Of a stretch of 64,000 nt of DNA, positions 37,004 through 51,371 are shown piece by piece. Origin of the DNA: a virus; IMG/VR virus record IMGVR_UViG_3300017746_000001, positions 64,785-128,784 of that record; one strand, 5' to 3'. The notes beneath the pieces are model-generated. The model was given only the letters and a program-made list of their open reading frames with translations. It did not search any database and was not told the DNA's origin. Within the stretch, counting starts at the first letter, position 1; each line of letters begins with the position of its first letter. The position numbers were made by a program, and so were the translations under genes.

Positions 37004-37015
37004 GGTCAGTAGGAG

Positions 37016-37852: not shown

Positions 37853-37860
37853 GGTCAGTA

Positions 37861-38406
37861 TTATAGTCCATCTATCTCGATTTTTGCTAGGTCAAAGCCT
37901 AGATCGATAGCCTCTTGGACTGTTACGGTTCTTTCTTCTCCAGTAATTGAACTTGGTTCAACTGGATTTCCTGGGTGGAATGTGAAAACTACTTTTTCTC
38001 CTTGATGTTCTCCGATGATAATTACGGTGAAATTAGTTGCTTCGGCATCTGCTACTATGTGTGCGTTCATTCCAATAACTGCACTTAGAAAACCTGTGTT
38101 TTTTGCATCTATAAGTTTCACTTCGTAATCTTCTGGATCACTTAGAAGGCCTAGTTCTATCATTCCTGTTTGTCCTGCTAATTCCTTATTATTGGATATA
38201 TAGGCTTCGCACCCGTTCATTATTTCTGGATGCTTAAATAGCGTCCATTCACTTTCTAGTAGGGCTGCTTCAAGAGTCTCTACTTCGTCGTATTGACGGT
38301 AATAACTCCCTGGACCATTTAATCTCATTGAGACTGTTGTATTCCAATGTTGCGGTATTTTTTCCTTTGTTTTATTAATAGCTTTAATTACTTCATTATT
38401 GCTCAT
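37861..38406 (-). CDS. hypothetical protein
   Basis: motif-led; VVFTFHPG. Confidence 0.75.
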   Translation of the reverse strand: MSNNEVIKAINKTKEKIPQHWNTTVSMRLNGPGSYYRQYDEVETLEAALLESEWTLFKHPEIMNGCEAYISNNKELAGQTGMIELGLLSDPEDYEVKLIDAKNTGFLSAVIGMNAHIVADAEATNFTVIIIGEHQGEKVVFTFHPGNPVEPSSITGEERTVTVQEAIDLGFDLAKIEIDGL

Positions 38407-38416
38407 GGTCAGTTAC

Positions 38417-38758
38417 TCATTCTCCCTTTGGGGAGAACCAGTATTCTGTAGCAGAGCCTTCAAAGTCGATTATCACTCTGAAACTCTTCCATCTCTTAGA
38501 AATCTCATTTTCAATTTCTTCTTCTTCTTCGAGTATTAGATTTTTGATCCAATCCTTGTAGTAACCCTTGTCTAAATCTGCTGTTCCAACTTTCCATATA
38601 CTGTTGGATATGTGATTTTCTAACCACTTGATGTAATCAAGGAGTTCTTCTTTTGAAGGTTCCAAAATGATTACCTCCTTTTCTCTACCTTGGTTACTGG
38701 GGTATTTTAGAGAAAACTTAGCAACACCTGGGAAATTCCTTGAGTAAATGTTTGTCAT
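38417..38758 (-). CDS. hypothetical protein
   Basis: likely ATG 38758 after GAGGAGG SD. Confidence 0.65.
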   Translation of the reverse strand: MTNIYSRNFPGVAKFSLKYPSNQGREKEVIILEPSKEELLDYIKWLENHISNSIWKVGTADLDKGYYKDWIKNLILEEEEEIENEISKRWKSFRVIIDFEGSATEYWFSPKGE

Positions 38759-38760
38759 TT

Positions 38761-38961
38761 TTATTCCTCCTCGTAGCGTTGTGAATAATCGTTGATTCTC
38801 CAAGAACCAATCGTGTTTCCGTTGATGTCTTGGATTATTCCGCCATCGCTTCCGTTGGCGATGCGTTCCACTATTTCTGCAAAGATTCTTTTTGTCTCTG
38901 GTAGCGGTGTTTCGTTGAACGCCGCATTATCTATGTTATATTCGATTTTTATGTTTGCCAT
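38761..38961 (-). CDS. phage-type small protein
   Basis: motif-led; DNAAF...DINGNTIG. Confidence 0.75.
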   Translation of the reverse strand: MANIKIEYNIDNAAFNETPLPETKRIFAEIVERIANGSDGGIIQDINGNTIGSWRINDYSQRYEEE

Positions 38962-38968
38962 GGTCAGT

Positions 38969-39283
38969 TTATTCTTGTTTGTGCCAATCATCGAAGTCGT
39001 AGTCGGACCATAAGGGGAAACCTGAGTTGTTATATCCTTCTTTTTCAATGAGTCCATGCTCGACGACAGATTCCTTATTTACACACAAGTAAATATACAC
39101 TTTTCCGACATTGGTAAGGCCCCAACCTGGAGCATCATCCCCGTCATTGAGCCACCTTCGCACGAAAAGTGCTGCTAGTGTCCATGTTTGTGTTTTTTCT
39201 CCTGCTTCTACCGTTAGAGCAGGTTCTTCTTTGCCAGCGTAATTCGCTTGCAGAAATTCTAGGATTTCTTCTTTTGTTGCCAT
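38969..39283 (-). CDS. hypothetical protein
   Basis: variant motif TGAGACCATG; MATKEE N-terminus. Confidence 0.7.
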   Translation of the reverse strand: MATKEEILEFLQANYAGKEEPALTVEAGEKTQTWTLAALFVRRWLNDGDDAPGWGLTNVGKVYIYLCVNKESVVEHGLIEKEGYNNSGFPLWSDYDFDDWHKQE

Positions 39284-39287
39284 GGTC

Positions 39288-39614
39288 TCAAGCCTCCATT
39301 CTGGGATGTAAGTTTGCATAACCTTCTGCAATCCAATTATTTATGGTTTTTATTGCAAAGGCGTTTTTCTCTCTGTTTGTCTTAAATCTTGAGATCTTCT
39401 CAATAGCCTCATTAACTTTCATATCGAGTTCTATTGATACTTTCTTCTGATTCTTCCCTAGTGCTTGTCTAGTCTCTTCCCAAAGATGGTATGCCGCCAT
39501 AATAGCGGCTTCTGAATTATCTCGGTTAGAAGAGTGTAGTTTTTCGAGCAGATTTGCGAATCTGTCTCTTAGTATTTGCAGTTTTACTGCGTTTCTCTTA
39601 GTATTTCTTGCCAT
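39288..39614 (-). CDS. hypothetical protein
   Basis: motif-led start 39614. Confidence 0.7.
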   Translation of the reverse strand: MARNTKRNAVKLQILRDRFANLLEKLHSSNRDNSEAAIMAAYHLWEETRQALGKNQKKVSIELDMKVNEAIEKISRFKTNREKNAFAIKTINNWIAEGYANLHPRMEA

Positions 39615-39621
39615 GGTCAGT

Positions 39622-39897
39622 TCAATTCCATTCTTCCCAAAGTTCGTCAGATTGCTTGGGTTCTGGTATTTCTTTTGTATCGTTTTCTTCATCGACTGAA
39701 TATGAGTCATATTCGGGCGAATCTGCATCTTCGTCGTGGGCGTGTTCACAAAAGAACTCTCCACTTTGCAGTTCGTCTTGATGAAATGCTAACAAATGTA
39801 ATATTCCACCTATGTTGTCCAAAATTGTGATCATTTTGTTGATTCCTAATATAATCGCTAATAAAAGCGCTATTATCAAATATATCTCTATTCCCAT
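39622..39897 (-). CDS. small membrane protein
   Basis: motif-led; N-terminal hydrophobic helix. Confidence 0.7.
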   Translation of the reverse strand: MGIEIYLIIALLLAIILGINKMITILDNIGGILHLLAFHQDELQSGEFFCEHAHDEDADSPEYDSYSVDEENDTKEIPEPKQSDELWEEWN

Positions 39898-39912
39898 GGT
39901 CAGTCAACTAGG

Positions 39913-40419
39913 CTACACAAGCCCTGCTCTTTCAGCATATCCGTCTAATCCTAGTTCGAAGTTTTCCATTACCCATGTGAAATCTTTTTCGTATGTGAAT
40001 GGGCCTGTTGTCCCTCTACCAATGTAGAGATTTACTCTTTCACAACCCAATACCACTTCTTCTGGTTCGAAAATCATCAACTGATTTTGTTGTTCTTTTC
40101 TCCAAGGAACTACTAGATTTGCTCCATCTCGATACGCTATCTCGCCCGATAGCATGAATCTTCTAAGTGGAGTACCATATAGCTCGTCAACTCCAACATG
40201 CGCTCTACAAGCACTTGCGATGCTATCCATTTCAAGAACAGACAATCTGTGGAAGTTTTTCACAAATACATCTATTTCCTTCACTTCTTTCACCATGCGC
40301 ACATATGCGACCTTTCCCTTTCTTACGCTTACATCTGCGCGTGTGGAAATTGCCTGTATCGCTTTTTTCAATAGTTTTGAAACCTCTGCGGTTTGTAAGT
40401 ATCTAATCTCTTGGTTCAT
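39913..40419 (-). CDS. hypothetical protein
   Basis: motif-led start 40419. Confidence 0.7.
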   Translation of the reverse strand: MNQEIRYLQTAEVSKLLKKAIQAISTRADVSVRKGKVAYVRMVKEVKEIDVFVKNFHRLSVLEMDSIASACRAHVGVDELYGTPLRRFMLSGEIAYRDGANLVVPWRKEQQNQLMIFEPEEVVLGCERVNLYIGRGTTGPFTYEKDFTWVMENFELGLDGYAERAGLV

Positions 40420-40429
40420 GGTCAGTCGC

Positions 40430-41500
40430 TCATCCAATCAATGTAGAGTGGAATATTGCGTTGTCTCTAGCGTCGGATGCTGTTCCGCATTGGTTCGGAC
40501 ATGAACCGCAGTCGGTGACGCACCCAATAACATGAGCTTCTCTTTCAATCGTTGCTCTTGAGTCATCAAAGTAAATCGGACCACCCCATAACTTCGTTTT
40601 TGTCAGAATTGCTGTGCCATCCTCATTCTTCCTACCAATTTTTCTAGCGATGTAGGACTTTGGATGACCTAATTTCTCCTGCTTCATGTAGGGGAATCTA
40701 GGGTCTGTTCTTCTGAATCTCCACGGAGTTTCGATGATTCGAATATTTTCTTTTATAGATAACTCATAGAATCTTTCTTGTGCCTCGTACAATACTTGCC
40801 CAAACCCTTCTTCTAGAGTCTGTTCATCATTCCATGCAAAGGTGCATAGGCGCATGTAAAAGCATTCTTGCTCGTTCATTTTTTGAAATTTCTTGATTAC
40901 GGTTCTGATTTCTTTCACCCTTGAATTAGGGTCGAAGTCTTCTGTCCAATCATAACCCGCGATTACGCTCCAATGGAAGATAGCGCCAGAAAGCGCTAGC
41001 CTCTCAAGGATTTCATCTGAGGGGATTTTCCAGAATTTTGTAATTAAAACCATTCTTGAGCCCACCATAGCGGCTGTCTCAGCCGCCCTGGTTGCAAGTT
41101 CCCAATCATATGAGGGATCTCCCATAACTCCATTCCTTACCCATCTTTTTGCAATCTCTCCACCTGTGCATCTTTTGAGATGCGCAATCGTGTCTTTCTG
41201 CAATAGCGTTGGTATCAGAACTTGTGGCGTAGGCTTGTCGAACTTGATTGCGTTTGTCAAGGTGTATTGGCTTCCGTCAGCATAGCATCCGTAGCATCCT
41301 CCTTTGCAACCATAAATTGTGTCCATTACATTCTTATCCGTTTTTCCGTTTTCTTTAAGCCGGATTATTTTAGCCTCGAAAGGCTTCAATGGTCTCCCTG
41401 CTTTTGTTGTATTTCTTGATGTCTGCTTAGGCAGAGCAGGTAATTCATACTCTTCCTGTATTGCAAACATATTCGTCCAATGTTTATTTGTCATTGTCAT
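40430..41500 (-). CDS. radical-SAM-like Fe-S protein
   Basis: CxxxCxxC (GCKGGCYGCYA), RNGVMGDPS, C-terminal CxxCxxxC. Confidence 0.6.
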   Translation of the reverse strand: MTMTNKHWTNMFAIQEEYELPALPKQTSRNTTKAGRPLKPFEAKIIRLKENGKTDKNVMDTIYGCKGGCYGCYADGSQYTLTNAIKFDKPTPQVLIPTLLQKDTIAHLKRCTGGEIAKRWVRNGVMGDPSYDWELATRAAETAAMVGSRMVLITKFWKIPSDEILERLALSGAIFHWSVIAGYDWTEDFDPNSRVKEIRTVIKKFQKMNEQECFYMRLCTFAWNDEQTLEEGFGQVLYEAQERFYELSIKENIRIIETPWRFRRTDPRFPYMKQEKLGHPKSYIARKIGRKNEDGTAILTKTKLWGGPIYFDDSRATIEREAHVIGCVTDCGSCPNQCGTASDARDNAIFHSTLIG

Positions 41501-41780
41501 GGTCAGTATTGTCTTTCATTTTGATATACATTATCGCCATGTTGTCGTTTTGAAATGACTCGAAAAGCCATTTATCCTCTATGAGATAGTCCATCAATTG
41601 AATTACATTCTTTTCCGGCTCCATGTCCCATTCCTTACCTATCTTGTTCCAATCCTTATCTTCCAACAATCCTGTTTCCTTGTATTCTTCTATAAGACTC
41701 TCCTTAGTATGGATTTGGGTTATATCTGTCCCGTTCCAAGAGCATAGGAAGTAGTCGTCATTTTCTAAATCTATATCCAT
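41484..41780 (-). CDS. hypothetical protein
   Basis: motif-led ORF. Confidence 0.7.
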   Translation of the reverse strand: MDIDLENDDYFLCSWNGTDITQIHTKESLIEEYKETGLLEDKDWNKIGKEWDMEPEKNVIQLMDYLIEDKWLFESFQNDNMAIMYIKMKDNTDHDNDK

Positions 41781-41792
41781 GGTCAGTTAGCC

Positions 41793-42317
41793 TCACTCAG
41801 CAACGCCAAGTTGGACTGCGCTGGATGCTCGCATGAGCATCCATTCTTCGCATCCCTCTTTTTTCTTAAGGCTCCTAGTCCAGTCGGCGGGCGTAGGAAC
41901 GAAACCGAAGTCCTCGTTCATGTGTTGCTCGCCAATCCAACGGACAGGTATGTTTTTTGTGTGGAAGTTTTCTTGCAATTTGATTTCTAGTAGCTTGTTC
42001 TCAAGGTCTGATAGAATAGATTGGTTCGTGTTGTTCGGTTCAAGATTCTCAAGTGCGGCCATCGTGACTGCAATCTCCTCTCTCTCGACGCTAAGATCCT
42101 TCTTTTCTTTTCTTGCATTAGTCTTGACTCGGATAAAAGGTCCGAATACCTGTTCTGCAATTTCTATTCCGCCAGTATGATGTAAAACTACTCTATGTGC
42201 AAAATGCCAGTCTTGTTTCTTGAATTGGTCAAAGAATTCGTGGATTCTCAAGTAATCCTCCGGTTCTCCACCCCACTTCTTTGCTGAACTCATTGCATGG
42301 TGTATTGCTGTACTCAT
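41793..42317 (-). CDS. DUF6915-like phage protein
   Basis: HAMSSAKKWGG...HR..LHH..GI...EQHM.ED.G. Confidence 0.7.
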   Translation of the reverse strand: MSTAIHHAMSSAKKWGGEPEDYLRIHEFFDQFKKQDWHFAHRVVLHHTGGIEIAEQVFGPFIRVKTNARKEKKDLSVEREEIAVTMAALENLEPNNTNQSILSDLENKLLEIKLQENFHTKNIPVRWIGEQHMNEDFGFVPTPADWTRSLKKKEGCEEWMLMRASSAVQLGVAE

Positions 42318-42427
42318 TCTTCCTCAATCCTTGTTGTTTTGACTTCTGGGAATCGGAAGACCTTGACGGCCAACCAATACAGAAATCTTTCATACATATC
42401 TTGTATTGTTAATTTTAACATGGTCAT
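42314..42427 (-). CDS. 37-aa small protein (not in ORF track)
   Basis: motif-led; ATGA-coupled to next gene. Confidence 0.55.
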   Translation of the reverse strand: MTMLKLTIQDMYERFLYWLAVKVFRFPEVKTTRIEEE

Positions 42428-42435
42428 GGTCAGTT

Positions 42436-42681
42436 CTAGTCCTCAGTTTCATCAAATTGTCTCAACTCTCTCACCTTCTTGTGATATAGTGCAAGTGCTT
42501 TTTGCTCACCAACAACAACCCATCCTTCGACTAACTCCTTTGTGTCATCAGATGTATGTCGGACTATGTCAATAGCCCAGTGTTTAGCAAGTCTGTGCAT
42601 CTCTACTTCTTTATCTTTAATTATTCCACTATATTTTTCTGTGTCAAATTTTTTTGTTTCTAAAAATTTCTTGTTTGTCAT
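42436..42681 (-). CDS. hypothetical protein
   Basis: motif-led start 42681. Confidence 0.7.
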   Translation of the reverse strand: MTNKKFLETKKFDTEKYSGIIKDKEVEMHRLAKHWAIDIVRHTSDDTKELVEGWVVVGEQKALALYHKKVRELRQFDETED

Positions 42682-42689
42682 GGTCAGTA

Positions 42690-43091
42690 TCACTCAGGAG
42701 GCGCGATTTCTACACCACCAATGTGCATGGTTCCATCATCCATATAATTTTTGGCATATTCAAAGACTGCTGTTGCATGTCTTCCGAAATCTCTACTCTG
42801 TTCATCGTCGCAGGTAAGAAGGTAGTCTCTTATGATGAAGTCTACCAACCTATCCAGTAGGTCTGCCTTTTTTTCCTTCAAAGACCAATGGAAACCATAT
42901 GGGACATAAACCAAATTGTAATCTGGTTGTCCATCATGTTCTTTGTTATTTATGAACTGGAGTATCTTGCTTCCTTTTGGAATAATTAGTTCCTCTTCTG
43001 TTCGTCCTTCATAGGCTACTTTTCCTTTTCCAGGCCATAGGCCTGAAATAGCGATTGGTTCACTTTCGTTTTCATTGTTATTTGTTGTCAT
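42690..43091 (-). CDS. hypothetical protein, paralog of 8629..8904
   Basis: motif-led start 43091. Confidence 0.75.
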   Translation of the reverse strand: MTTNNNENESEPIAISGLWPGKGKVAYEGRTEEELIIPKGSKILQFINNKEHDGQPDYNLVYVPYGFHWSLKEKKADLLDRLVDFIIRDYLLTCDDEQSRDFGRHATAVFEYAKNYMDDGTMHIGGVEIAPPE

Positions 43092-43099
43092 GGTCAGTA

Positions 43100-43450
43100 T
43101 CACTCAGGTTGAGTGATCTGTTGAAATTCCAACTCGGCATCTGTAAATGTCTTCCATCTTACTAGGTCGTTTGTTTGAATCCCGATTTTAGGGTTGCTAT
43201 TCAGCCCACCATAGCCTGAGTCATCAATAGAGATGCATTGGAAGTCTTGTGCGTTTTTGATTCCCCAATCTTCATCGCAAAAACCCATAAAGTAAGGCGA
43301 ACATGGCGAACATGTTAATTTTAACCAAATCCCTTCTTCGTTGTTTTTTACTTCTCTCCAGTTATATATGAGTTCTTCTTTGTATTCTTTGGGTAATGAA
43401 GCTCGAGCGTTTTTTGACACCCAAGCATATGCCCAATAAGTTACTCCCAT
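43100..43450 (-). CDS. hypothetical protein
   Basis: follows a motif-led 10-aa ORF (43453..43485). Confidence 0.7.
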   Translation of the reverse strand: MGVTYWAYAWVSKNARASLPKEYKEELIYNWREVKNNEEGIWLKLTCSPCSPYFMGFCDEDWGIKNAQDFQCISIDDSGYGGLNSNPKIGIQTNDLVRWKTFTDAELEFQQITQPE

Positions 43451-43496
43451 TTTTATTCCTCTTTAATTTCTTCTTTTGTTGCCATGGTCAGTTGGC

Positions 43497-44276
43497 TCAG
43501 TAATTTGAGCCGCGTACTTCATATTGTATTTCATAAGGTTCGTAATACTCTTCATCTTCATCATAAGGATAGAAGGTAATCGTTCCGTTCGTACTTGGGT
43601 GGTTTGCCCAAGAACCGAAATTAGCCCTTAGAGGCAGATATGTCGGACTCATTGTACGAGCAATTCCCATTTTCCTCAATGACTTCATATTGAGCCATTC
43701 TTCCTGGAACATCTTTTCCTCATCGGCTTTGATTTCTTCTTCTGTTCCACCTTTCCTAGACCATATGTGGGCCGTGTAAAGGGTGAATCGTTCATCACTC
43801 AAGAGTATTTCTTCAATTTCTCCCTTGTCGTTTACAATCGTAGCATAGACATTTTCTACGCATCCTGAATCGTGGCCTCCGCTAAATGTGCAGACCAGTT
43901 TACTCCATTGCATATCCTTGATGTATTGCCTCAAAATGTCATTCCATTCTTCTTCACCTACTCTTTCTCTAGCCACCACCCATCTTTCTTGATTGGTGAT
44001 AGATGCGCTCCAAGCATCTGTTTCAGTTTCCATGAAACGGATTTTTTTCTTGATGGATTCAAGAGATCGTTCTTCGGGCGATGTATTCTTTCCAAGCCCC
44101 CAGTATGTATTCTCATTGCTTTTTCTTTCACTAAACCATTCTAGGTAGTCTTTGTATGATTTGGTCTCCATCAGTTCCTCATCGGACATGGTTCTCCATT
44201 CTTCCTCGGATTTTCCTTCTACGGTAAATGGGTGCAATTTTGCACCTAATCTTTCTATAAACATTTTATTTGCCAT
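43497..44276 (-). CDS. hypothetical protein, paralog of 23153..24049
   Basis: motif-led; FSGGHDSGCV. Confidence 0.7.
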   Translation of the reverse strand: MANKMFIERLGAKLHPFTVEGKSEEEWRTMSDEELMETKSYKDYLEWFSERKSNENTYWGLGKNTSPEERSLESIKKKIRFMETETDAWSASITNQERWVVARERVGEEEWNDILRQYIKDMQWSKLVCTFSGGHDSGCVENVYATIVNDKGEIEEILLSDERFTLYTAHIWSRKGGTEEEIKADEEKMFQEEWLNMKSLRKMGIARTMSPTYLPLRANFGSWANHPSTNGTITFYPYDEDEEYYEPYEIQYEVRGSNY

Positions 44277-44284
44277 GGTCAGTA

Positions 44285-45175
44285 TTACAAGTGTTCCCTA
44301 CGGAACTCTTCTGCAGCATCTTTACCGAATACTTCTTCCATCATCTCTTCCATTCGGACTTGAGACACTAAAAGGTCGTCTAGCATGTGCTGTTTCTTCT
44401 CTAATATCCGGTATTCATCCTTGTTTTTCAGATTCTTGACTAGGTCTGTGTCCTTCTGGAAGATGCTCACCACCCTGATTCTCATATTGGGACCAGTTGT
44501 GACTGAAGCTGTATGAACTCTGGAGCAACCAGGCAGGGTCTTGTAAACCAAATGATGGAGAATTGCTATGAATCCCCCTGGTTTGGTCACTCTAACTGCC
44601 TCATTCACCCATGCATAAGGACGAATGGGTTCTGTTTCCCATAGAGGACTACTGTATGTGATTTCGACTCTCTTGTGCTTCGTGTTCTCCACCATGTCGT
44701 ATGGGGGATCCACTAGCAGGTAGTCGTAAGTTTCGTCTTCCATAGGGAATGTCTCCGTCGCGTCTGCAACGAATGTAGGGTCGTTAGTCTCCTGTATGTC
44801 CATTGTGTCTTCGTTCTCTCTTCCTTGAATACTGCCAGAGAACAGATGCAAAACCTTGCTTCCCTCTCTTATCTGCAGTAAATCATCAATCTTGTTCAAG
44901 AATCCGCCTGGATAGCCTCCCTTGTAGGGTGCTGTGTTCCTGCCGCATACCATCGAACTTCTCCTTGAGGCCGAGCCGTGAATCGACTTGTCCTTTGTCT
45001 TGAGTTTGTTGTAGTGTACTGCCAGTCTCCAAACTGAACCTTTTGATACCTTTACGCCGATTTTCTCGGACCACTTCTCGGCTACATCATCATATTCCAT
45101 TTCTTGTAAATCTCTCAGGACTTCTTCCTTGTGGTCGTTGAGAAGTCCAACTTTTTTGCCTCTTAATTTTAGCAT
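44285..45175 (-). CDS. amino-DNA methyltransferase-like protein with N-terminal HTH
   Basis: YKGGYP, VLHLFSG, VDPPY. Confidence 0.75.
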   Translation of the reverse strand: MLKLRGKKVGLLNDHKEEVLRDLQEMEYDDVAEKWSEKIGVKVSKGSVWRLAVHYNKLKTKDKSIHGSASRRSSMVCGRNTAPYKGGYPGGFLNKIDDLLQIREGSKVLHLFSGSIQGRENEDTMDIQETNDPTFVADATETFPMEDETYDYLLVDPPYDMVENTKHKRVEITYSSPLWETEPIRPYAWVNEAVRVTKPGGFIAILHHLVYKTLPGCSRVHTASVTTGPNMRIRVVSIFQKDTDLVKNLKNKDEYRILEKKQHMLDDLLVSQVRMEEMMEEVFGKDAAEEFRREHL

Positions 45176-45182
45176 GGTCAGT

Positions 45183-45431
45183 CTAGGCTAGAATTAGCCG
45201 CATAATCTCTTCAGTCTTGTCAGGCTTTAGAGGATTGACTACTGCTTGGTGTATAATTGAAGCAGGAAATCCATCAGACATCGAAGTAGCTTCAATGATT
45301 ACGCATTTCCAGTTCGGCCTCAATACATTAGTTGTAGATACCACATCCTCTGCCCAACGGTATTCGCTTTTCTTATCCACCACAATGTATTGTGCTGGCT
45401 TCCTAGGCTTCTTGAGCATTATAATTTTCAT
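45183..45431 (-). CDS. hypothetical protein
   Basis: motif-led ORF. Confidence 0.7.
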   Translation of the reverse strand: MKIIMLKKPRKPAQYIVVDKKSEYRWAEDVVSTTNVLRPNWKCVIIEATSMSDGFPASIIHQAVVNPLKPDKTEEIMRLILA

Positions 45432-45489
45432 GGTCAGTACAGATGCAATCTCCGCATCTCTTACATATTGGACAACAAATGTCGTTCAT
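45403..45489 (-). CDS. 28-aa Cys-rich microprotein (not in ORF track)
   Basis: motif-led MNDICCPICKRCGDCICTDH... Confidence 0.5.
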   Translation of the reverse strand: MNDICCPICKRCGDCICTDHENYNAQEA

Positions 45490-45497
45490 GGTCAGTT

Positions 45498-45845
45498 TTA
45501 AGGGAACATCTTGTTCCATTCTTCTATTGTATAGGTAGTGTAAGGTGTTTTTTCTTCACCATACTGGTTTGCGAGAAAGGGCATAATTATTGTTTTTTGA
45601 TTATCCCCTATAATGCAATCGCGTAGTAAAACTCCTGCCCAAGAATCTTGATCATAATCGCCTGGGAAATGTCCATTTAACCTCTCGATTAATTTTTCTG
45701 CTCTTTCTTGAGCATCTTCTTTTCTCTCGTATGTGAAAAGAGCCCCGTTTGAGGCATCACAAGCACAATATCCTACCATTTGGTTCTCCGCAACAACCCA
45801 AAGGTTGTCAGGAGTATATTTTGTTCTATTAGATGTATTATCCAT
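45498..45845 (-). CDS. hypothetical protein
   Basis: variant motif ACTCACCATG. Confidence 0.7.
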   Translation of the reverse strand: MDNTSNRTKYTPDNLWVVAENQMVGYCACDASNGALFTYERKEDAQERAEKLIERLNGHFPGDYDQDSWAGVLLRDCIIGDNQKTIIMPFLANQYGEEKTPYTTYTIEEWNKMFP

Positions 45846-45863
45846 GGTGAGTTCGGGTTGACG

Positions 45864-45907
45864 AAAAAATGTGGGGAGTTTGTTGCAGTAATCGCAACAA
45901 ACTCCCC
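45864..45907 (-). terminator. long hairpin followed by T-tract
   Basis: GGGGAGTTTGTTGC/GCAACAAACTCCCC stem, then TTTTTT on the - strand. Confidence 0.6.
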
Positions 45908-45917
45908 TTAATTTCTA

Positions 45918-46172
45918 TTAGTCATTTATACTCGCCCACATCTCTTGGGCTGTTTTTCCTTGATAATTTTTATTCCAGTATCTATTACTGGTGTTTTCTT
46001 TATCTTGCGCATAACTCTTGTCTTTTGACCAGAGGTATGCTTGATTTTTCGCGATTTTCCTAAATTTGTTTGCTATATATTTGTTTTGAGACTGTGATAG
46101 CCTCTTTACTTTCTTGAAGAATCTAGTAGGTTCCCAGATTCTTGCACCAACTATAGGTGAAATGCGTTTCAT
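45918..46172 (-). CDS. small basic protein
   Basis: variant motif ACTAACCATG. Confidence 0.6.
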   Translation of the reverse strand: MKRISPIVGARIWEPTRFFKKVKRLSQSQNKYIANKFRKIAKNQAYLWSKDKSYAQDKENTSNRYWNKNYQGKTAQEMWASIND

Positions 46173-46479
46173 GGTTAGTTGGTCACTTTACCGTCAGACC
46201 ACGACAAGCACGCATACAGGGGTTAGTTTCCCATATCGTACTTCGTTGAGGCAGGCGTGAACATTATTGTGATAAACAAAAACAACATTTGGTAGCAATA
46301 CCCTCTCTCTGCCTCGTATTGCATGGTTAGTATGTGTCTCTCAAAACCGAGCATTTCGCTTCCCCGTAGGGGTGCGGTAAGGCTGAAACACAGTTTGCCT
46401 TTTTCTATTAAGAGCAAAGGTCGTGCTGCTCTGTCACGGCCCCATAGGGGTCTTATCTCTAGTTACTCGGAATTGTTCT

Positions 46480-47136
46480 TTAGTTCCTAGGCCTACCGGA
46501 GAGTCGGCGGAATGTATTTTTAGCATTCACCTTCTTAGGTATTGTAACCTCTTCGGGTGGGTTTTCCTCTTCCAGTTGCTTTTGTTTGAGGAGTTTTCTT
46601 CTGCGGTAAACGCGATCCCTCCTGTTTGCATCTGTCCCAGGTATGTATGCCATTGCCTCATCCGGCCAATTCTCTCGAAGTGCTAATTCTAGAACACCTC
46701 TTATCGTAGTTATTTCCTCGATAGGTCTCTTTGGTCTTGGTGTTTTCCTGTAACCTTCCGTCATGGAATGACGACTTAGTGTAGCGTCGAATTTTTTACC
46801 TCCGAACACCTCTTGGGCGCTTTTTTCACGGCTGTTCTTCACTATATCGCTGCATTGTTTGAATGTTTCCTGCAGGACCTTTATCACGCCAACTTCTAAT
46901 TTTTGTTGTTTCGCCATTTCTATAGCGCGTGTAATGTGAATTGATTCTTCTACTGCATCTTTTCTAATTTGAAGCAATAGATTGTCTGCATGCCCGTGTG
47001 CTAGTGCATTATCGCACCAGAAGCACGAGGCTGTGCCGTGAGTATCGAAGTTGTATTTTCGCTTCTCACATCGACCATTGTTCCTGATTACTTTCTCAAG
47101 ATGGTTGGTCAAGTCGCTTTTCCTTTCGTTTGTCAA
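46480..47136 (-). CDS. basic hypothetical protein, possibly nucleic-acid binding
   Basis: TTG start after GAGGTAGGTG; CFWC; Arg-rich C-terminus. Confidence 0.65.
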   Translation of the reverse strand: MTNERKSDLTNHLEKVIRNNGRCEKRKYNFDTHGTASCFWCDNALAHGHADNLLLQIRKDAVEESIHITRAIEMAKQQKLEVGVIKVLQETFKQCSDIVKNSREKSAQEVFGGKKFDATLSRHSMTEGYRKTPRPKRPIEEITTIRGVLELALRENWPDEAMAYIPGTDANRRDRVYRRRKLLKQKQLEEENPPEEVTIPKKVNAKNTFRRLSGRPRN

Positions 47137-47324
47137 AATGCACCACCTACCTCAAGTTTTTGGAGGTTTGACTCCATAGCATTTGGCAGCAGCGCATTGT
47201 AATACATATCGTAAAACATGGTCAGTTGCCTACTAGACGGTGCGGTTTGACTTTCTCGCTCCCAAAGCGATACAGTCCCTAGGCACCCCCTAGCAGGGTT
47301 GTGATATTCAAATGGTCAAACCAA

Positions 47325-49085
47325 TTACTTAGAACGATTTTTTTGAGACACTTTTTTGGGATTCCTGGCTTTGTGAGCCTTATTTCTTTCATCCCTACTC
47401 TTGTTTCTCATAGCAATCGTTTCCTCGCTGTATGGTACTGCCAGAAGACAAATCGTTGGTTCTCCTGCAAAGTCCTCAACCCTCACTTGAAGGTGGGACG
47501 CATTCTTGCCAATATTCCCGCTTGTTGCGGTCTTGACTACTTGGGGTCTGGCTCTACTAGCATCTCGCGATACCAGTTGGTAGCCATCATTAGCCCCATA
47601 TGGAAGGAACAAGTGGGTCTCGCTCAAAGCATCTATCGCTCGAACGAGTCCAGTCAGTTCGTGTAAAGGATCGGCTTCGACTAATTCCTTCGCCCTATTC
47701 AGTAAGAAACTGAAATTTGTTAGAGCAAGGTCGTCTGAGCCTGTCCTGTTGTTCTGTCCAATTATGTCACATGTAGTCACGCTGCGGTTGAATCCCATAA
47801 CCTCCAAGAACGGAAGTATTAGGCTTCTCACCGTCAAATCGCTGATATTATCCTTAGTCAACCAGATTTGAGACTGCGTCTTACCGTATTTGTTTGGCTT
47901 GTTCGCGTTCTCTACAGTTCTGGATGATTTCTTGAAGGCGCTGATGTGGAGTTTAATTCCATATGGGTGATCAAAATTCCAGTTAACCTCTTTGGCTTCC
48001 TGAAGCTGATTGCCCTCTAGTTGCCCTCCATGGGCAGCCACCAGTAGACTTCGTATCATATCTATGCTCAGAGGGGTTTTCCCACTAATCATAAAGTTCA
48101 ACATAGGATGTATAGCGGTTCGGCTTGTCGCAAAGGACATTAAGCCTAGACGCGCTAGAACATTATGCTTGAATGCAAATGCATCGGCAAACCATGACGA
48201 TTCATTGCGCTGGAAGTTCATTTGAGACTGTGTCAACAATCCCATTGCAATAGAGTTAGTCCTTTTTGGGTCAGGGAACGACATTTTTGTGTCTTTACCC
48301 TTACCGGACCTTCTCGGGGCTGATTCTATCTTGAAACAGCCTTGAACTTGCGCATTTTCATCTCCTGGACAAGTAACGATGTCATAGAGAGTCCATGTCG
48401 AGCATTCTGAAACTGCTTCTGTCATAATAAAGCCGAATTGAACGCCATCAGGCTTGTCTTTGCGGTTGTTAAGCGCTTCAACAAAGTCCTCGACATTCTC
48501 TCGACTGTATAGACCAGACGCAGCTATTCCACTAGACTGCAAATCGGAATGCATCTTTACATCTTCTGCGATGTCGATGCTCATTCCTAGCATGCTAGCA
48601 AATAAACTCGTGTCTCCTCCACCGTCTTCCAACGAAGAAATAATTGCGTATGAAGCTCCAAATCCGCGTGAGATTCTCTTCTCCCCAGGCTTTCGTGGAT
48701 TATCCTCGAATATCTCTGGGTGGCGGTTTTCTAGTTCTGCTAGCCATTGCTTTCTATTGTGCGCATGATCTTTGCCTGTCACTATAACTTTGGAACGGAT
48801 TCCGCAAATATTCGCTTCTCCGTATTTCCCTGTCTGTTGTCGTGCTAGGTCCATCGATTCAATTGCGTTCGCATTGACTTGTGCCTTTTCGCTTTCTTTC
48901 TGTTGGTTTGTGTGTACACTAATGATTTCATCAATTAACAGATGTTTCTTAGGGTAATGTGAGAGTGTTATTCCCATTCCCTTTGCCTGTTCTCTTAGTT
49001 CTACCATTGTGTTCTTATCCATTTTTTCATGTAGTGTAGCCTCTTGTGTGCTACCATTGCCTGTATAATTATTGTAAATTACCAT
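47325..49085 (-). CDS. large hypothetical protein with Rho-N/HeH-like N-terminal segment
   Basis: motif-led; TMVELREQAKGMGI...KKHLLIDEI. Confidence 0.75.
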   Translation of the reverse strand: MVIYNNYTGNGSTQEATLHEKMDKNTMVELREQAKGMGITLSHYPKKHLLIDEIISVHTNQQKESEKAQVNANAIESMDLARQQTGKYGEANICGIRSKVIVTGKDHAHNRKQWLAELENRHPEIFEDNPRKPGEKRISRGFGASYAIISSLEDGGGDTSLFASMLGMSIDIAEDVKMHSDLQSSGIAASGLYSRENVEDFVEALNNRKDKPDGVQFGFIMTEAVSECSTWTLYDIVTCPGDENAQVQGCFKIESAPRRSGKGKDTKMSFPDPKRTNSIAMGLLTQSQMNFQRNESSWFADAFAFKHNVLARLGLMSFATSRTAIHPMLNFMISGKTPLSIDMIRSLLVAAHGGQLEGNQLQEAKEVNWNFDHPYGIKLHISAFKKSSRTVENANKPNKYGKTQSQIWLTKDNISDLTVRSLILPFLEVMGFNRSVTTCDIIGQNNRTGSDDLALTNFSFLLNRAKELVEADPLHELTGLVRAIDALSETHLFLPYGANDGYQLVSRDASRARPQVVKTATSGNIGKNASHLQVRVEDFAGEPTICLLAVPYSEETIAMRNKSRDERNKAHKARNPKKVSQKNRSK

Positions 49086-49099
49086 GGTCAGTCAAATAG

Positions 49100-49650
49100 T
49101 TGAGTATTCTAATTCTAGAGCAGCCTCTCTACTGCAGGCTTGCTAATATTGCAATACTAGCGGGTGCCTTCACTCACGAGTTCTAATTCGTGTATTGAGT
49201 TATTCGAGTTTTACCTCAAATACTACTCTAGAAGGGCTAGACCAAGCGTTCTGCTTTCACAGATTACCATTCTCGCCCCTGGTTGTTTGGCCTTTCGGCC
49301 TGATGGCATCATTTTATCCCCTCTGCAACATCTCTGCTGGAAAGGACTGGACTCAATTATCGGATTTCCACTTCATCCGACCATCATTTTGTGGCCTCTC
49401 GGCCCTAGGTTTGCGAGGTTTCGCTCGCTCCGTTTACCCTCTCGGGCCTCGGTGTAGTTTGTATGAAGCCTCTCGGCTTCGTATGCAACTTCCTTCACCC
49501 TCAATTCCGGAACCCTGCATGGGCCTGCGCACTTTTGGTTGCGCATAGTAATACATGATTAGTTTACGAACCTACTAAATTCTTCTTAACTCATAAAGAA
49601 TCTCGTAGTGAGTTATGCAATAGAAAGCCAAAGGCTTTCTAGTGCTATTT
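49100..49650 (-). ncRNA. candidate large structured RNA
   Basis: several GNRA-capped hairpins on - strand (GGCC-GAAA-GGCC, GGCC-GAGA-GGCC, CCC-GAGA-GGG, GAAGCC-GAGA-GGCTTC, CTGT-GAAA-GCAG); no credible ORF; ends approximate. Confidence 0.65.
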
Positions 49651-49737
49651 CGTAATACATGATTAGTCCGAGATTGTTACTCACCACCTTATCTCGAATC
49701 GGGTGGGTCATAGTATCTGCCATGAAATTTTTTGAAT

Positions 49738-50001
49738 TTACTGCGGGTGCTTTGATTGATGTCTAGCGACTGCAATCACATAATTTGCGTTTTGTTGGGC
49801 TTCTTTCAGTTGTTCTCGACTATTCCTTAAATCTTCTAAGGATTTGTCCCTGACTGCCTTTGTGATGAGCCTTTTCATCCACAAATGTGTGATTTGGTCG
49901 TCTAACTGGCGACCCGTCAACATTCTTGTTTTCATGTTTCCGTTACTTTTCTTTCGGAGAAGTGCATCCGACCCATTGGGATTTTTTTGCGTATTAGGCA
50001 T
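49738..50001 (-). CDS. small basic protein
   Basis: variant motif ACTAACCATG directly after the tRNA CCA. Confidence 0.65.
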   Translation of the reverse strand: MPNTQKNPNGSDALLRKKSNGNMKTRMLTGRQLDDQITHLWMKRLITKAVRDKSLEDLRNSREQLKEAQQNANYVIAVARHQSKHPQ

Positions 50002-50010
50002 GGTTAGTTT

Positions 50011-50087
50011 TGGCGGGTCTAGCAGGGTTCGAACCTGCGGCCTTCCGGTTAAGAGCCGGACGCTCTACCTGACTAAGCTATAGACCC
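50011..50087 (-). tRNA. tRNA-Lys (anticodon CTT), CCA encoded
   Basis: GGGTCTA acceptor stem, TCCGG-CTCTTAA-CCGGA anticodon arm, GGTTCGAACC T-arm, ends GCCA. Confidence 0.95.
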
Positions 50088-50782
50088 TTTTGACCCTCTG
50101 ACGAGGGTTTTGTCGTAAAACATTGTTAGTAGTAACATGTCGGTCTTTCCCGACTGTCTTTGTTTGATGAGATCAAGTCCCATCATGCGTATTTTATCAG
50201 CAATACATTATCAAACTTCCTCGGGCATAGCCCGCACAACATCTTTTCCCTCGACCTAATCGTTAGGGAAATTCGTAGCCTGATTTGTGTTCACCGTTAG
50301 GTGTGTTGCATATCTTCCAGAGGTTAGCTTCTACCAGATTTCTCATTCTCAGAGTCAAGTTACCTGTTGGTAATCCTGTTCTGTGAGGCTGGTTTCGCAA
50401 CGCCGCTTTCGCTTTTTCTCTCTCTCAATACTGCTGTAACGCATTTAGCGTATGTGTATGACACCCAATTCATCCCTAAATGGGGGCCGCCCGCCTTTTT
50501 GTTTCCAAAAATTGGACTTTGGTTTCTGTTCATTCCTCTCAAGGAGGAGGCAACTACGCCCCAAAGTGATTCCAACTAGGTTAATCTGCTAAGAAAAACC
50601 CATTTGGCGGGTTACTCATCATGCATTCGAGCGAGAATAAATCTCGGGATTACTTCGTGAAATGCATGAGTTATTAATCCGGTGTTCCATGTTACTCTCA
50701 CACATTCCTCAATGTTAGCACATTGCTTGTGTAAGTAGATCGTGTAGCCCCTCGGGGCAACCAGATGGAGAACTCTCGTTCT

Positions 50783-50889
50783 CACTATATAGGCCATCGG
50801 CCCTCTAGAAGAGAGCCAAATACAGCCTTTCAGGCGCTTTGACACGCCTTTACACTATATAGGCCAACGGCTCTCTAGAAGAGAGCCAT
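50783..50889. repeat. ~37-bp imperfect direct repeat x2, 70-bp spacing
   Basis: CACTATATAGGCCAWCGGCYCTCTAGAAGAGAGCCA. Confidence 0.85.
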
Positions 50890-50911
50890 AGTTAGTACCA
50901 TATAGAGTAAT

Positions 50912-51371
50912 TACTGTAGTATACGCCATCGGCATTCTTGAACTAGGGACATAAATGCCTCTATTTCGTGTCAAATTAGCCTGTTACCAGGCGTTTTTCG
51001 AACCGTATGGCGATCTGAAGCTATTCACTACAATAAGTTAGTAGTAAATAGCCGCTATACTGTAGCATACGCCATCGGCCTTCTTGAAGAACGGACATTT
51101 CGTACCGTTCTAACTGCAAATCTGCCTGTTTCCAGGTGTCTTCTGAACCGAATAGCGATCTAAAGCTACTTACCACTATAAGTTAGTAGTAAATAGCCGC
51201 TATACTGTAGCATACGCCATCGGCATTTATCAAACAAGCCCTAATAGACTGTTTTTTCGGACCCCTAGGTGATTTTCCTAAGTGATCTGATATTCTTAGC
51301 TCACATATTTGTAAATGTGTGCAAAGTTAATACCGAGTAGCACAATTGCTACTAATTACGCCATCGGCATT
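50912..51371. repeat. ~145-bp imperfect tandem repeats with TACGCCATCGGC cores
   Basis: GCCATCGGC at 50925, 51071, 51216, 51360; ATAAGTTAGTAGTAAATAGCCGCTATACTGTAGCATACGCCATCGGC present twice. Confidence 0.85.

What the first reader, a model, noticed from the sequence alone, without database searches (positions are those of the whole stretch)
45843..50011. Motif variants bound RNA elements and micro-ORFs at the 5' end of the array
Seen: variants cluster at the start of the array. ACTAACCATG occurs directly after the tRNA CCA (49999) and at 46170 and 46322; ACTCACCATG at 45843; ACTAATCATGTATTAC twice (about 49548-49563 and 49652-49667). Several open only tiny ORFs within hairpin-rich spacers; the 49658 copy reads Met-Tyr-Tyr-Glu-Ile and continues into hairpins, and the 46322 copy sits at the base of a GTATTGC/GCAATAC stem. 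Inference: the motif marks unit boundaries, including non-coding units, which favours a transcription, processing or recombination role over a purely translational one.
Basis: partly seen in the sequence, partly recalled or inferred. Interest (0 to 1): 0.7.

Follow-up and report, generated by a model that had tools for sequence, protein, structure and literature searches.

The report
Gene-start tag also bounds RNA units
A marine, probably archaeal, virus puts the same ten-letter tag in front of about 65 consecutive genes, and also around a tRNA and several non-coding RNAs, so the tag looks like a private "unit starts here" signal rather than an ordinary ribosome-binding site.

Summary
The window is half of a complete 128.8-kb virus record with terminal repeats. 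Its minus strand carries a 42-kb one-way array.

- **Main array:** 58 units begin with the invariant ACTGACCATG.
- **Head (50896-45843):** only 2 of 10 copies are canonical.
- **Head content:** three promoter-like modules, a 760-nt structured RNA, tRNA-Lys, a hairpin unit, a 470-nt structured RNA, four genes and the array's only terminator-like hairpin.
- **Micro-ORFs:** they are not conserved as proteins. One is the relic of a gene with an internal deletion.
- **Relatives:** nine related loci share the layout. One distant relative uses ACTGAACATG instead, and there and elsewhere non-coding units carry the tag with ATA or ATT in place of ATG.
- **Ribosome-binding sites:** tag-led genes lack Shine-Dalgarno sites, while untagged second genes of cassettes have them.
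- **Cassette exchange:** homology blocks between relatives start and stop at the tag, and cassette order differs between relatives.

My reading is a virus-private unit-start signal acting on transcripts. It could work by initiation at the A of ATG or by cleavage just before it; these are not resolved. It also serves as the joint for cassette exchange.

This scan reported a similar array with a different tag in another marine virus (e1-1063336). My paper searches found no published description.

The parts
51178..51231 (-). Promoter-like module 1: a conserved block (GATGGCGTAT at 51221-51212), 24 nt of filler, then a start-less tag copy, ACTAACTTAT (51187-51178).
   Evidence: The same block and the same 24-nt spacing occur in L118, L119, L121, L122 and L124.
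51033..51086 (-). Promoter-like module 2: block at 51076-51067, 24 nt of filler, then ACTAACTTAT at 51042-51033.
50887..50940 (-). Promoter-like module 3: block at 50930-50921, a different 24-nt filler, then ACTAACTATG at 50896-50887. This is the first tag copy of the array.
   Evidence: In relatives the copy reads ACTAACTATG in 5 of 5 loci that reach this far.
50131..50886 (-). A structured, apparently non-coding RNA unit of about 760 nt that follows the first tag copy.
   Evidence: folding z -6.0 (0 of 20 shuffles fold as well); 84-86% nucleotide identity to relatives; no Rfam family. RNA-library contigs cover 50151-50822.
50121..50130 (-). Tag variant ACTAACAATG, which heads a 33-nt hairpin leader and the tRNA.
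   Evidence: The corresponding copy reads ACTTACAATG in 7 relatives and is a tandem ACTTAACATA-ACTCAACATA in L126.
50011..50087 (-). tRNA-Lys(CTT) with an encoded CCA.
   Evidence: It is present in 7 of 8 loci L118-L125 and in L126. Compensatory changes in the acceptor stem are seen.
49999..50008 (-). Tag variant ACTAACCATG, 2 nt after the tRNA. It heads an 87-aa ORF (50001-49738).
   Evidence: The 91-aa ORF at this place in L121 is unrelated.
49554..49667 (-). A 104-nt hairpin unit between two ACTAATCATG copies. It holds the 15-aa micro-ORF.
   Evidence: z -5.1, with a closing stem next to both tags; no counterpart in any relative.
49093..49563 (-). Tag ACTAATCATG (49563-49554) followed by a structured RNA of about 470 nt. 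It holds the 40-aa micro-ORF.
   Evidence: z -4.9; 111 predicted pairs, 2 with compensatory change; modular inserts; 1-nt indels; a 47-nt core is identical in L126; no Rfam hit.
47325..49092 (-). Canonical tag (49092-49083) and a 586-aa orphan gene (49085-47325).
   Evidence: the family's N-terminus is conserved, so the tag's ATG is the true start. No domain was found.
46480..47226 (-). Canonical tag (47226-47217), a 28-aa relic N-terminus, and a 218-aa ORF in another frame (47136-46480). Together they are a gene with an internal deletion.
   Evidence: 47145-46546 aligns to residues of about 196-460 of the 407-488-aa proteins of relatives (E 1e-25 to 1e-27); the N-terminal peptide resembles theirs.
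46180..46331 (-). Tag ACTAACCATG (46331-46322) and a 152-nt unit that holds the 33-aa micro-ORF and starts with the GCAATAC/GTATTGC hairpin. I read it as a non-coding cassette.
   Evidence: Its first 37 nt recur at another array position in L125. It is absent at this place in L118 and L122.
45918..46179 (-). Tag ACTAACCATG (46179-46170) and a conserved 84-aa gene.
   Evidence: the MKRISP... N-terminus is seen in 4 relatives with the same tag version.
45864..45907 (-). A terminator-like hairpin of 15 pairs followed by T6. It is the only such element in the array and separates the head from the main array.
   Evidence: (z -6.2). It is conserved in L118, L120, L121 and L122.
45498..45852 (-). Tag variant ACTCACCATG (45852-45843) and a 115-aa gene, the first unit after the terminator.
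   Evidence: Relatives have ACTTACCATG at this place, and L126 has ACTCATCATG.
8619..45496 (-). The main array: 58 exact ACTGACCATG copies that head cassettes of one or two genes. The last copy (8628-8619) is start-less, ACTGACCATA.

Best explanation
The tag (core ACTNA[C/A]N followed by AT) is a virus-private unit-start signal that acts on transcripts, not a ribosome-binding site.

The mechanism I commit to, narrowly, is an initiator-type promoter element. RNA synthesis begins at the A that follows the seven-letter core. Tagged genes are then read from leaderless mRNAs, and the tRNA and non-coding RNAs each get their own start.

At the head of the array the tag sits a fixed 24 nt downstream of a conserved BRE/TATA-like block. 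That is the geometry of a normal archaeal promoter, which the host machinery could use early in infection. Inside the array the tag stands alone. There it would have to be read by a virus-modified polymerase; the virus encodes A''-like and TFB-like proteins.

Because every unit carries the same ten letters, the tag is also the joint at which cassettes, coding or non-coding, are exchanged between related viruses.

Shown: the anatomy, its conservation, the lack of Shine-Dalgarno sites on tagged genes, the start-less copies, the fixed spacing at the head, and homology blocks that end at the tag.

For: 1. **The tag bounds non-coding units in every relative.** These are the leader plus tRNA, two large structured RNAs and small hairpin units.

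2. **Copies without a start codon exist only at non-coding places.** They are ACTAACTTAT twice, ACTGACCATA, ACTAACCATT after the tRNA in L118, and five copies ending in ATA in L126. A at +1 and T at +2 are kept in all of them except the two ACTAACTTAT copies.

3. **Shine-Dalgarno-like words track the absence of the tag.** They occur before 5 of 43 tag-led ORFs, 8 of 16 array ORFs without the tag and 32 of 75 ORFs outside the array (Fisher p 0.003 and 0.0004). This is the known archaeal pattern: the first gene of a transcript is leaderless and distal genes use Shine-Dalgarno sites (my own knowledge of the field).

4. **The head has promoter geometry.** The spacing between the conserved block and the tag is 24 nt with three unrelated fillers, in the window and in five relatives.

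5. **The large RNA's upstream context is not conserved.** It is different in each relative, and in L123 it is the end of the tRNA. Nothing conserved but the tag precedes it.

6. **A terminator separates head from array.** A single conserved terminator-like hairpin is followed 11 nt later by a tag copy and then 37 kb with no other promoter-like signal.

7. **The tag version is lineage-specific.** It is ACTGACC here and in 8 relatives, and ACTGAAC in L126. A cassette shared between the lineages at 84% identity carries each lineage's own version. This fits a reader that evolves with the virus.

8. **Transcription-related proteins.** Pfam hits for Rpb1 domain 5 (E 3e-19) and a weak TFIIB hit (E 0.002, below the family's cut-off).
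Against: - No RNA 5' end has been mapped. The only RNA data available were assembled contigs, which cannot show ends.
- The 60 canonical copies have no information at all from -60 to -5 (at most 0.15 bit per position). There is therefore no TATA or BRE, and no archaeal polymerase is known to start without TBP and a TATA box.
- RNA-library contigs run across tag copies: 49083-49092 in X1, X2 and X3, and 47217-47226 in X1 and X2. Read-through RNA therefore exists, which suits a cleavage model as well.
- Perfect 10-of-10 identity at 58 sites is as typical of a nuclease or a base-pairing target as of a promoter.
- The TFIIB hit is below Pfam's threshold, and I found no full set of polymerase subunits.
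- The end of the tag, ACCATGG, also resembles a start-codon context, so a translational part is not excluded.
Confidence: 0.3

Rival explanations
1. RNA punctuation by cleavage. The head promoter makes one very long transcript, and a sequence-specific endoribonuclease cuts between the seventh letter of the tag and the A. The nuclease might be one of the orphan head proteins. Cutting would release leaderless mRNAs, the tRNA precursor and the non-coding RNAs.
For: - No promoter-like information lies upstream of internal copies.
- Gaps between genes are too short for any other signal. The upstream stop codon begins 11 nt before to 2 nt inside the tag at 45 of 62 copies.
- The non-coding units have closing stems that end next to the tags on both sides, as processing substrates do.
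- Contigs from RNA libraries run across tag copies.
- The head genes are conserved orphans.
- The Shine-Dalgarno pattern fits this model equally well.
Against: - No nuclease domain was found in any head protein.
- The conserved terminator at 45907-45864 would have to be read through to express the main array.
- Cleavage 33 nt before a tRNA is not needed, because RNase P would trim the leader anyway.
- The fixed spacing of the tag from the upstream block has no role in this model.
- No partial copies of the tag are avoided inside genes.
Confidence: 0.25
2. A private translation signal. The tag is a start-codon context or a termination-reinitiation signal read on the polycistronic RNA, by the ribosome or by a viral factor. 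The copies at non-coding units would then be relics or mere cassette joints.
For: - The tag abuts the start codon, and one copy uses GTG as the start (ACTGACCGTG at 13275).
- A at -3, CC at -2 and -1, and G at +4 in 36 of 60 copies resemble a eukaryote-type start context (my own knowledge).
- The upstream stop codon usually lies 1-5 nt before the tag.
- The sequence downstream is A-rich and poor in C and G.
- Tagged genes lack Shine-Dalgarno sites.
Against: - Start-less copies sit at non-coding units, and tagged non-coding units are conserved in 9 relatives.
- The tag precedes a tRNA.
- The tag lies in the promoter-like modules at a fixed spacing.
- The two lineage versions, ACC and AAC, cannot both pair with one ribosomal RNA sequence, even allowing wobble. 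This is my reasoning.
Confidence: 0.2
3. A recombination joint only. The ten letters are kept because they are the site, or the microhomology, at which cassettes are swapped, as in an integron. Gene expression would depend on something else.
For: - Among 28 BLASTN blocks of at least 120 nt between the window's array and relatives, 16 start within 3 nt of a tag start and 13 end on the last letter of the next tag or one beyond it.
- Cassette order differs between relatives.
- A 58-nt mini-cassette and a non-coding cassette sit at different positions in different relatives.
- One cassette is 96% identical to its counterpart in a relative, next to one that is 74-79% identical.
Against: - There are no inverted repeats and no second conserved element at cassette ends.
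- No recombinase was seen at the head. My domain searches covered 9 head proteins.
- A joint alone would not need to abut the start codon.
- A joint alone would not explain the missing Shine-Dalgarno sites or the fixed promoter spacing.
Confidence: 0.1

Closest known systems
Start-associated sequences (SAS) of cluster K mycobacteriophages (PMC3203893; I read passages)
   Same: Both are short asymmetric repeats in one orientation, confined to the non-structural part of the genome. Both lie just before the start codons of many unrelated genes, are conserved across related phages and are absent from the host. The function of SAS is unknown.
   Different: SAS is 13 bp long, lies 3-7 bp before the start, contains the Shine-Dalgarno core AGGAG and heads 13-19 genes. 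The tag here abuts and includes the start codon and has no Shine-Dalgarno core. It heads about 65 consecutive units, including a tRNA and non-coding RNAs, in a probable archaeal virus.
Intergenic repeats of halovirus HF2 (PMC8707807; I saw the abstract in a search listing only)
   Same: Both are repeated sequences between the genes of an archaeal virus that serve as expression signals.
   Different: The HF2 repeats are 29 and 58 bp long, contain AT-rich promoter motifs and lie in real intergenic gaps. Here the repeat is 10 nt, has no AT-rich box, and lies in gaps of a few bases.
Integron gene-cassette arrays
   Same: Both are one-way strings of mostly single-gene cassettes behind one strong promoter. 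Cassette order differs between relatives, and the joints fall in a short conserved core.
   Different: This array has no attC-type inverted repeats at cassette ends. I found no integrase next to it. The conserved element lies at the 5' end of each cassette and includes the start codon.
Gene-start signals of viruses with their own transcription: the poxvirus late TAAATG initiator, the T4 late promoter TATAAATA, nidovirus TRS, and mononegavirus gene-start signals
   Same: All are short, nearly invariant words at or just before each gene of one expression class, read by virus-specific machinery. The poxvirus word overlaps the ATG.
   Different: Those systems have known polymerases or factors. Here none is identified, the host is an archaeon, and the word also bounds tRNA and non-coding RNA units.
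Heptamer-punctuated gene array in another marine virus
   Same: It is also a marine, probably archaeal, virus with about 90 consecutive genes each preceded by one tag. It too has start-less tagged non-coding cassettes.
   Different: Its tag is different (ACCGCTCAC). I did not see its sequence and could not test whether the two viruses are related.

Membership tests
Shine-Dalgarno ribosome-binding site | A purine-rich word complementary to the 3' end of 16S rRNA (GGAGG or GGTGA type), 4-10 nt before the start codon. | tested here: not met
   such words occur before 5 of 43 tag-led ORFs, against 8 of 16 untagged array ORFs and 32 of 75 ORFs outside the array. The tag itself has no such word and touches the ATG.
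Canonical archaeal promoter | BRE and TATA box about 23-38 nt upstream of the transcription start. | tested here: not met
   information at each position from -60 to -5 is at most 0.15 bit over the 60 canonical copies. This applies to internal copies only.
Canonical archaeal promoter (the three head modules only) | A conserved upstream element at a fixed distance from the start site. | tested here: inconclusive
   the conserved block lies 24 nt before the tag, with three different fillers, in the window and in 5 relatives. The A/T-rich stretch at about -29 to -19 is only TATA-like. No transcription start has been mapped.
Integron attC site | Imperfect inverted repeats at the 3' end of each cassette, and an adjacent tyrosine integrase. 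| tested here: not met
   no conserved sequence lies before the tag. Searches found no recombinase domain in the head proteins. The rest of the genome was not searched for one.
Start-associated sequences of cluster K phages | A 13-bp GGGATAGGAGCCC-type word with a Shine-Dalgarno core, 3-7 bp before the start codon. | tested here: not met
   compared with passages of PMC3203893. The sequence is different, there is no Shine-Dalgarno core and there is no spacer. The one-orientation rule and the restriction to one genome part are shared.
Known RNA families for the bounded elements (group I/II introns, RNase P, tmRNA, large ornate RNAs) | A match to an Rfam covariance model. | tested here: not met
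   only the tRNA passes. All other matches in 45800-51400 score far below their families' gathering scores.
Self-splicing or spliced intron in the head | RNA in which the element is removed. | tested here: inconclusive
   no joint was reported in 45800-51000 in 4 runs, and contigs of X1, X2 and X3 run from the structured RNA into the 586-aa gene. Contigs drop rare forms, so a minor spliced form could be missed.
Guide-RNA-directed recognition of the tag | A conserved viral RNA that carries the complement of the tag. | tested here: not met
   no GGTYRGT on the sense strand between 45000 and 51200. Elsewhere there are only scattered single hits.

The most novel reading that the evidence does not exclude
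A family of large marine archaeal viruses runs a 40-kb accessory-gene array by punctuation. A ten-letter tag, read by a factor the virus itself encodes at the head of the array, creates an RNA 5' end exactly at the AUG of each cassette. About 65 genes are thereby turned into leaderless mRNAs, and a tRNA and several structured RNAs are released. The same tag lets coding and non-coding cassettes be swapped freely between viruses, and the tag and its reader co-evolve (ACC in one lineage, AAC in another).
Probability: 0.35. Interest if true: 0.85.

Novelty: new variant of a known kind. Interest (0 to 1): 0.72.

Why it matters
Archaeal viruses are thought to rely on host promoters and host ribosome-binding rules. 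Here about a third of a complete 129-kb virus genome uses one private ten-letter signal in place of both, and the same signal frames a tRNA and two large conserved structured RNAs.

If the tag makes RNA ends, it would be a new way to make leaderless mRNAs in archaea. It would also point to an unknown sequence-specific factor among the orphan head proteins, either an initiation factor or a nuclease.

The tag also defines a cassette system that shuffles at least six DNA methyltransferase genes and many orphan genes between viruses of abundant ocean archaea.

The question is testable now, because the element is present in marine RNA libraries from several studies.

Tried and rejected
**Intron idea.** I asked whether the two ACTAATCATGTATTAC copies, or the 28-aa/218-aa frame break, mark an intron. 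There is no Rfam intron match. There is no joint in the head in 4 runs, and contigs are continuous from the structured RNA into the 586-aa gene. The frame break is an internal deletion relative to the 407-488-aa genes of relatives. Rejected.

**Guide RNA.** No complement of the tag lies in the head RNAs. Rejected.

**Avoidance of partial tags, and depletion of T-runs.** Sub-words of 5-8 letters occur at their expected numbers outside the tag copies. T5+ runs number 17 on the sense strand, about what the base composition predicts. Neither result is informative.

**Function of the 586-aa head protein and the other head proteins.** Pfam, PHROGs, a PDB sequence profile and the Atlas gave nothing usable. 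The representatives search found 11 proteins in total and no annotated one.

**Host.** A 24-nt piece of the tRNA and the thermosome-like protein found nothing in genome contigs. I therefore could not test whether a host genome uses the tag.

**Relatives in viral contigs.** Single-protein and first-alignment scans found none. A 14-letter tag pattern returned 117 loci with at most 2 copies each, which is chance level.

**Read-laying results that I do not count as evidence (contigs only):**
- No cover at 50952-51500 in 4 of 4 runs.
- Depth is unequal between contigs.
- Some contig ends lie at or near tags: 49556 (X3), 49554 (X2), 49538 (X1, X8), 46172 (X3), and 50008/50007 (X1/X2).
- One X3 contig ends at 49661, one base before an ATG. 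It runs on for 16 letters unlike the window, and those letters resemble 49760-49745.
- An adapter is joined at 47278 (X1).
- These ends may be graph breaks where strains differ at cassette joints, not RNA ends. X1 and X2 have near-identical tables and may be one data set.
- X1 and X2 contigs reach 47263, which is 37 nt upstream of the tag at 47226. So not every RNA-library contig starts at a tag.

**Run shares under 0.2.** I did not use them for any statement about habitat.

**Tools unavailable.**
- I did not ask for supplementary files of papers. The tables of PMC5434244 and PMC11706807 may list related genomes.

Full report
**What the window is.** The window is bases 64785-128784 of a 128,784-bp virus record with a 123-bp direct terminal repeat, rated complete.

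- It encodes an 839-aa protein with RNA polymerase Rpb1 domain 5 (E 3e-19).
- It encodes a weak TFIIB-like protein (E 0.002, below the family cut-off) and glycosyltransferases.
- Outside the window it encodes a thermosome-like protein.
- A 2017 paper describes 'group D' magrovirus-like elements with a thermosome and RNA polymerase A, for which no closed genome was then known (PMC5434244; I read passages). This record may be of that kind. I did not test this by phylogeny.
- Related DNA comes from marine metagenomes, and the head of the array is held by marine RNA libraries.

**The array.** ACTNAYCATG occurs 70 times in the window against 1.4 expected. The exact ACTGACCATG occurs 60 times on the minus strand of the whole record and once on the plus strand. 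All the minus-strand copies lie between 8,900 and 49,100 in window coordinates, and each opens an ORF.

- Around the 60 canonical copies nothing is conserved from -60 to -5 (at most 0.15 bit per position).
- The conserved word is (A/T)ACTGACCATG followed by a preference for GCAA and an A-rich, C/G-poor stretch.
- The upstream gene's stop codon begins between 11 nt before and 2 nt inside the tag at 45 of 62 copies, most often 4 nt before it.
- The genes include at least six DNA methyltransferases, a PAPS-reductase-like protein and many orphans.

**The observation.** I add ACTAACAATG at 50130-50121, 33 nt before the tRNA. I also add ACTAACTATG at 50896-50887, and two start-less ACTAACTTAT copies further upstream.

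Read 5' to 3' on the minus strand, the head is:
1. three promoter-like modules;
2. a 760-nt structured RNA (z -6.0);
3. tag, a hairpin leader and tRNA-Lys;
4. tag and an 87-aa ORF;
5. tag and a 104-nt hairpin unit (z -5.1);
6. tag and a 470-nt structured RNA (z -4.9);
7. tag and a 586-aa gene;
8. tag and a damaged gene;
9. a conserved spacer;
10. tag and a 152-nt unit;
11. tag and an 84-aa gene;
12. a 15-pair hairpin followed by T6;
13. ACTCACCATG and the main array.

Only 2 of these 10 head copies are canonical, against 58 of 58 exact copies downstream. The 152-nt unit is not significantly structured overall (z -0.4), so 'hairpin-rich' does not hold for all spacers.

**Relatives.** The 586-aa protein has 11 homologues. 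An alignment scan of metagenome contigs gave 8 loci, L118-L125, at about 50% amino-acid identity and 46-48% G+C.

- All 8 carry the same tag before their genes, and 7 of 8 carry the same tRNA-Lys at the head. The eighth locus starts downstream of that point.
- In L120, L121 and L122, every copy after the terminator-linked ACTTACC copy is canonical (14, 15 and 15 copies). Variants therefore cluster at the head in relatives too.
- A wider alignment found a more distant relative, L126. It has the same tRNA and layout, but its tag is ACTGAACATG in the array and ACTTAAC or ACTCAAC at the head.

**Are the micro-ORFs genes?** No.

- The 470-nt element is 85-95% identical in nucleotides to relatives, while the gene next to it is 66-69% identical in nucleotides and about 50% in protein.
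- It differs from them by single-base indels. Relatives carry inserts of about 0 to 240 nt between conserved GNRA-capped hairpins.
- The ORF that starts at its tag is 40 aa here and 99-128 aa in relatives. The frame is shifted between residues 7 and 18.
- Its predicted closing helix pairs the letters right after the tag with letters just before the next tag. Only 2 of 111 predicted pairs show compensatory change, because the sequences are so alike. A 47-nt core is identical in L126.
- The 15-aa unit has no counterpart in any relative.
- The 33-aa ORF is 20 aa in L125, where the unit sits elsewhere in the array.
- The 28-aa ORF at 47219 resembles the N-terminus of the 407-488-aa proteins of relatives. 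The 218-aa ORF that follows in another frame aligns to their residues of about 196-460. This is one gene with an internal deletion.

**Evidence that the tag is not just a translation signal.**

- Tag copies without a start codon occur only at non-coding places. They are the two upstream promoter modules, the last copy of the array, ACTGACCATA, ACTAACCATT after the tRNA in L118, and five copies ending in ATA in L126.
- The tag precedes the tRNA leader in every relative.
- The context upstream of the large RNA differs in each relative, and in L123 it is the end of the tRNA itself.

**Evidence that the tag stands where a transcript start would.**

- Shine-Dalgarno-like words occur before 5 of 43 tag-led ORFs, 8 of 16 untagged ORFs inside the array and 32 of 75 ORFs elsewhere in the genome (p 0.003 and 0.0004). 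Some untagged 'ORFs' in that count are mis-called starts, which weakens the contrast rather than creating it. Untagged array genes are the second genes of two-gene cassettes.
- In archaea, first genes of transcripts are commonly leaderless and distal genes use Shine-Dalgarno sites. This is my own knowledge of the field.
- At the head, a conserved block (GATGGCGTAT and the letters around it) lies exactly 24 nt before the tag core, with three unrelated fillers, in the window and five relatives. That puts a TATA-like stretch about 20-29 nt before the A that follows the core.
- The only terminator-like element in 42 kb lies between head and main array, 11 nt before a tag copy.

**Evidence for cassette exchange at the tag.**

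- Of 28 BLASTN blocks of at least 120 nt between the main array and L118, L120, L121, L122 and L126, 16 begin within 3 nt of a tag start. Four more begin inside a tag.
- Thirteen of the 28 end on the last letter of the next tag or one beyond it. Three others end only because the locus ends.
- Cassette order differs between relatives.
- The methyltransferase cassette at 45182-44285 is 94-96% identical to relatives, while its neighbour is 74-79% identical.
- A 58-nt mini-cassette (45496-45439), whose small Cys-rich ORF runs into the next tag, sits at four different places in the relatives.
- One cassette is shared with L126 at 84% identity, and each copy carries its own lineage's tag version.

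**RNA data.** Only assembled contigs of RNA libraries were available. What may be said is limited. Contigs from X1, X2 and X3 cover the 470-nt RNA and the 586-aa gene as one piece. Contigs of X1 and X2 cross the tag at 47217-47226. No joint was reported in the head. The element therefore occurs in RNA libraries of at least three studies as unspliced, read-through sequence. Contig ends, uncovered parts and depths are listed under Tried and rejected and are not used as evidence.

**Mechanism.** The anatomy fits a virus-private unit-start signal that works on transcripts. I cannot separate initiation at the tag from cleavage at the tag.

- I lean slightly to initiation (0.30 against 0.25). The reasons are the promoter geometry at the head, the terminator followed by a tag, and the viral A''-like and TFB-like genes.
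- Against initiation, internal copies have no TATA or BRE, and no archaeal polymerase is known to start without them.
- A private translation context (0.20) is weakened by the start-less copies and by the two lineage versions of the tag.
- A pure recombination joint (0.10) does not explain the link to start codons and to missing Shine-Dalgarno sites.

**Comparison and novelty.** The closest published thing I could check is the start-associated sequence of cluster K mycobacteriophages. It shares the one-way, class-restricted, start-linked pattern and the unknown function. It differs in that it contains a Shine-Dalgarno core and lies 3-7 bp upstream of the start.

The HF2 intergenic repeats are real promoters but are longer and AT-rich (abstract only). 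Integrons share the cassette logic but not the site structure.

Searches for the tag itself and for related wording found no description. These were, together with passages of PMC5434244 and PMC11706807. The library lacks most subscription journals.

This scan noted a like array with another tag in a different marine virus (e1-1063336). I did not see that DNA.

Noticed in passing
window 49093-49556 (-); L118-L126: The 470-nt structured RNA is modular. It has a conserved 5' core of about 170 nt and a 3' core of about 210 nt. Relatives carry inserts of 0 to about 240 nt between GGCCGARAGGCC hairpins. A 47-nt stretch is 100% identical in the distant relative L126, whose neighbouring protein is only about 24% identical. 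There is no Rfam match.
   Followed up: partly
window 50131-50886 (-): A second, larger structured RNA (about 760 nt, z -6.0) lies directly behind the first tag copy. It is 84-86% identical in relatives and begins with two copies of a 34-nt palindrome-containing repeat (50886-50853 and 50826-50793).
   Followed up: partly
window 50887-51231 (-): There are three tandem modules of about 145 bp. Each has a conserved block, 24 nt of filler and a tag core. Only the third ends in ATG; the first two read ACTAACTTAT. Relatives have two such modules.
   Followed up: partly
window 46480-47226 (-): This gene has lost about 170-250 codons relative to the 407-488-aa genes of relatives. What remains is a 28-aa N-terminal relic and a 218-aa C-terminal ORF in another frame. 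Contigs of RNA libraries carry the same arrangement.
   Followed up: yes
window 45439-45496 (-); L118-L124, L126: A 58-nt mobile mini-cassette encodes a Cys-rich peptide (CCPxCKRCGDCIC) whose last three codons are supplied by the next tag. It is 94-96% identical across relatives and sits at different array positions.
   Followed up: partly
window 44285-45182 (-): A DPPY-type DNA methyltransferase cassette is 94-96% identical to L120, L121 and L122, while flanking cassettes are 74-79% identical. This looks like a recent exchange. The array holds at least six DNA methyltransferase genes.
   Followed up: partly
window 49661 (-), run X3: One RNA-library contig ends exactly one base before the ATG of the 49667-49658 tag. 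It runs on for 16 letters that match 49760-49745 with one change. This could be a back-join, a tandem duplication in another strain or an assembly artefact.
   Followed up: no
window 8100-8630 (-): At the array's end there is a start-less tag copy, ACTGACCATA (8628-8619), 21 nt before an untagged gene. It is followed by two tandem C-run/T-run elements (about 8296-8225) whose tails (GYCRACCCGAACTC) match the tail of the head terminator. After them comes a GC-rich hairpin holding tag-like fragments.
   Followed up: partly
window 13266-13275 (-) and 15373-15382 (-): There are two one-mismatch tag copies. ACTGACCGTG uses GTG as the start. In TCTGACCATG the upstream gene's TGA stop lies inside the tag.
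   Followed up: partly
L126 8540-8620: In the distant relative, the unit after the tRNA contains a tandem array of GATTTGATTTGATTC-type repeats.
   Followed up: no
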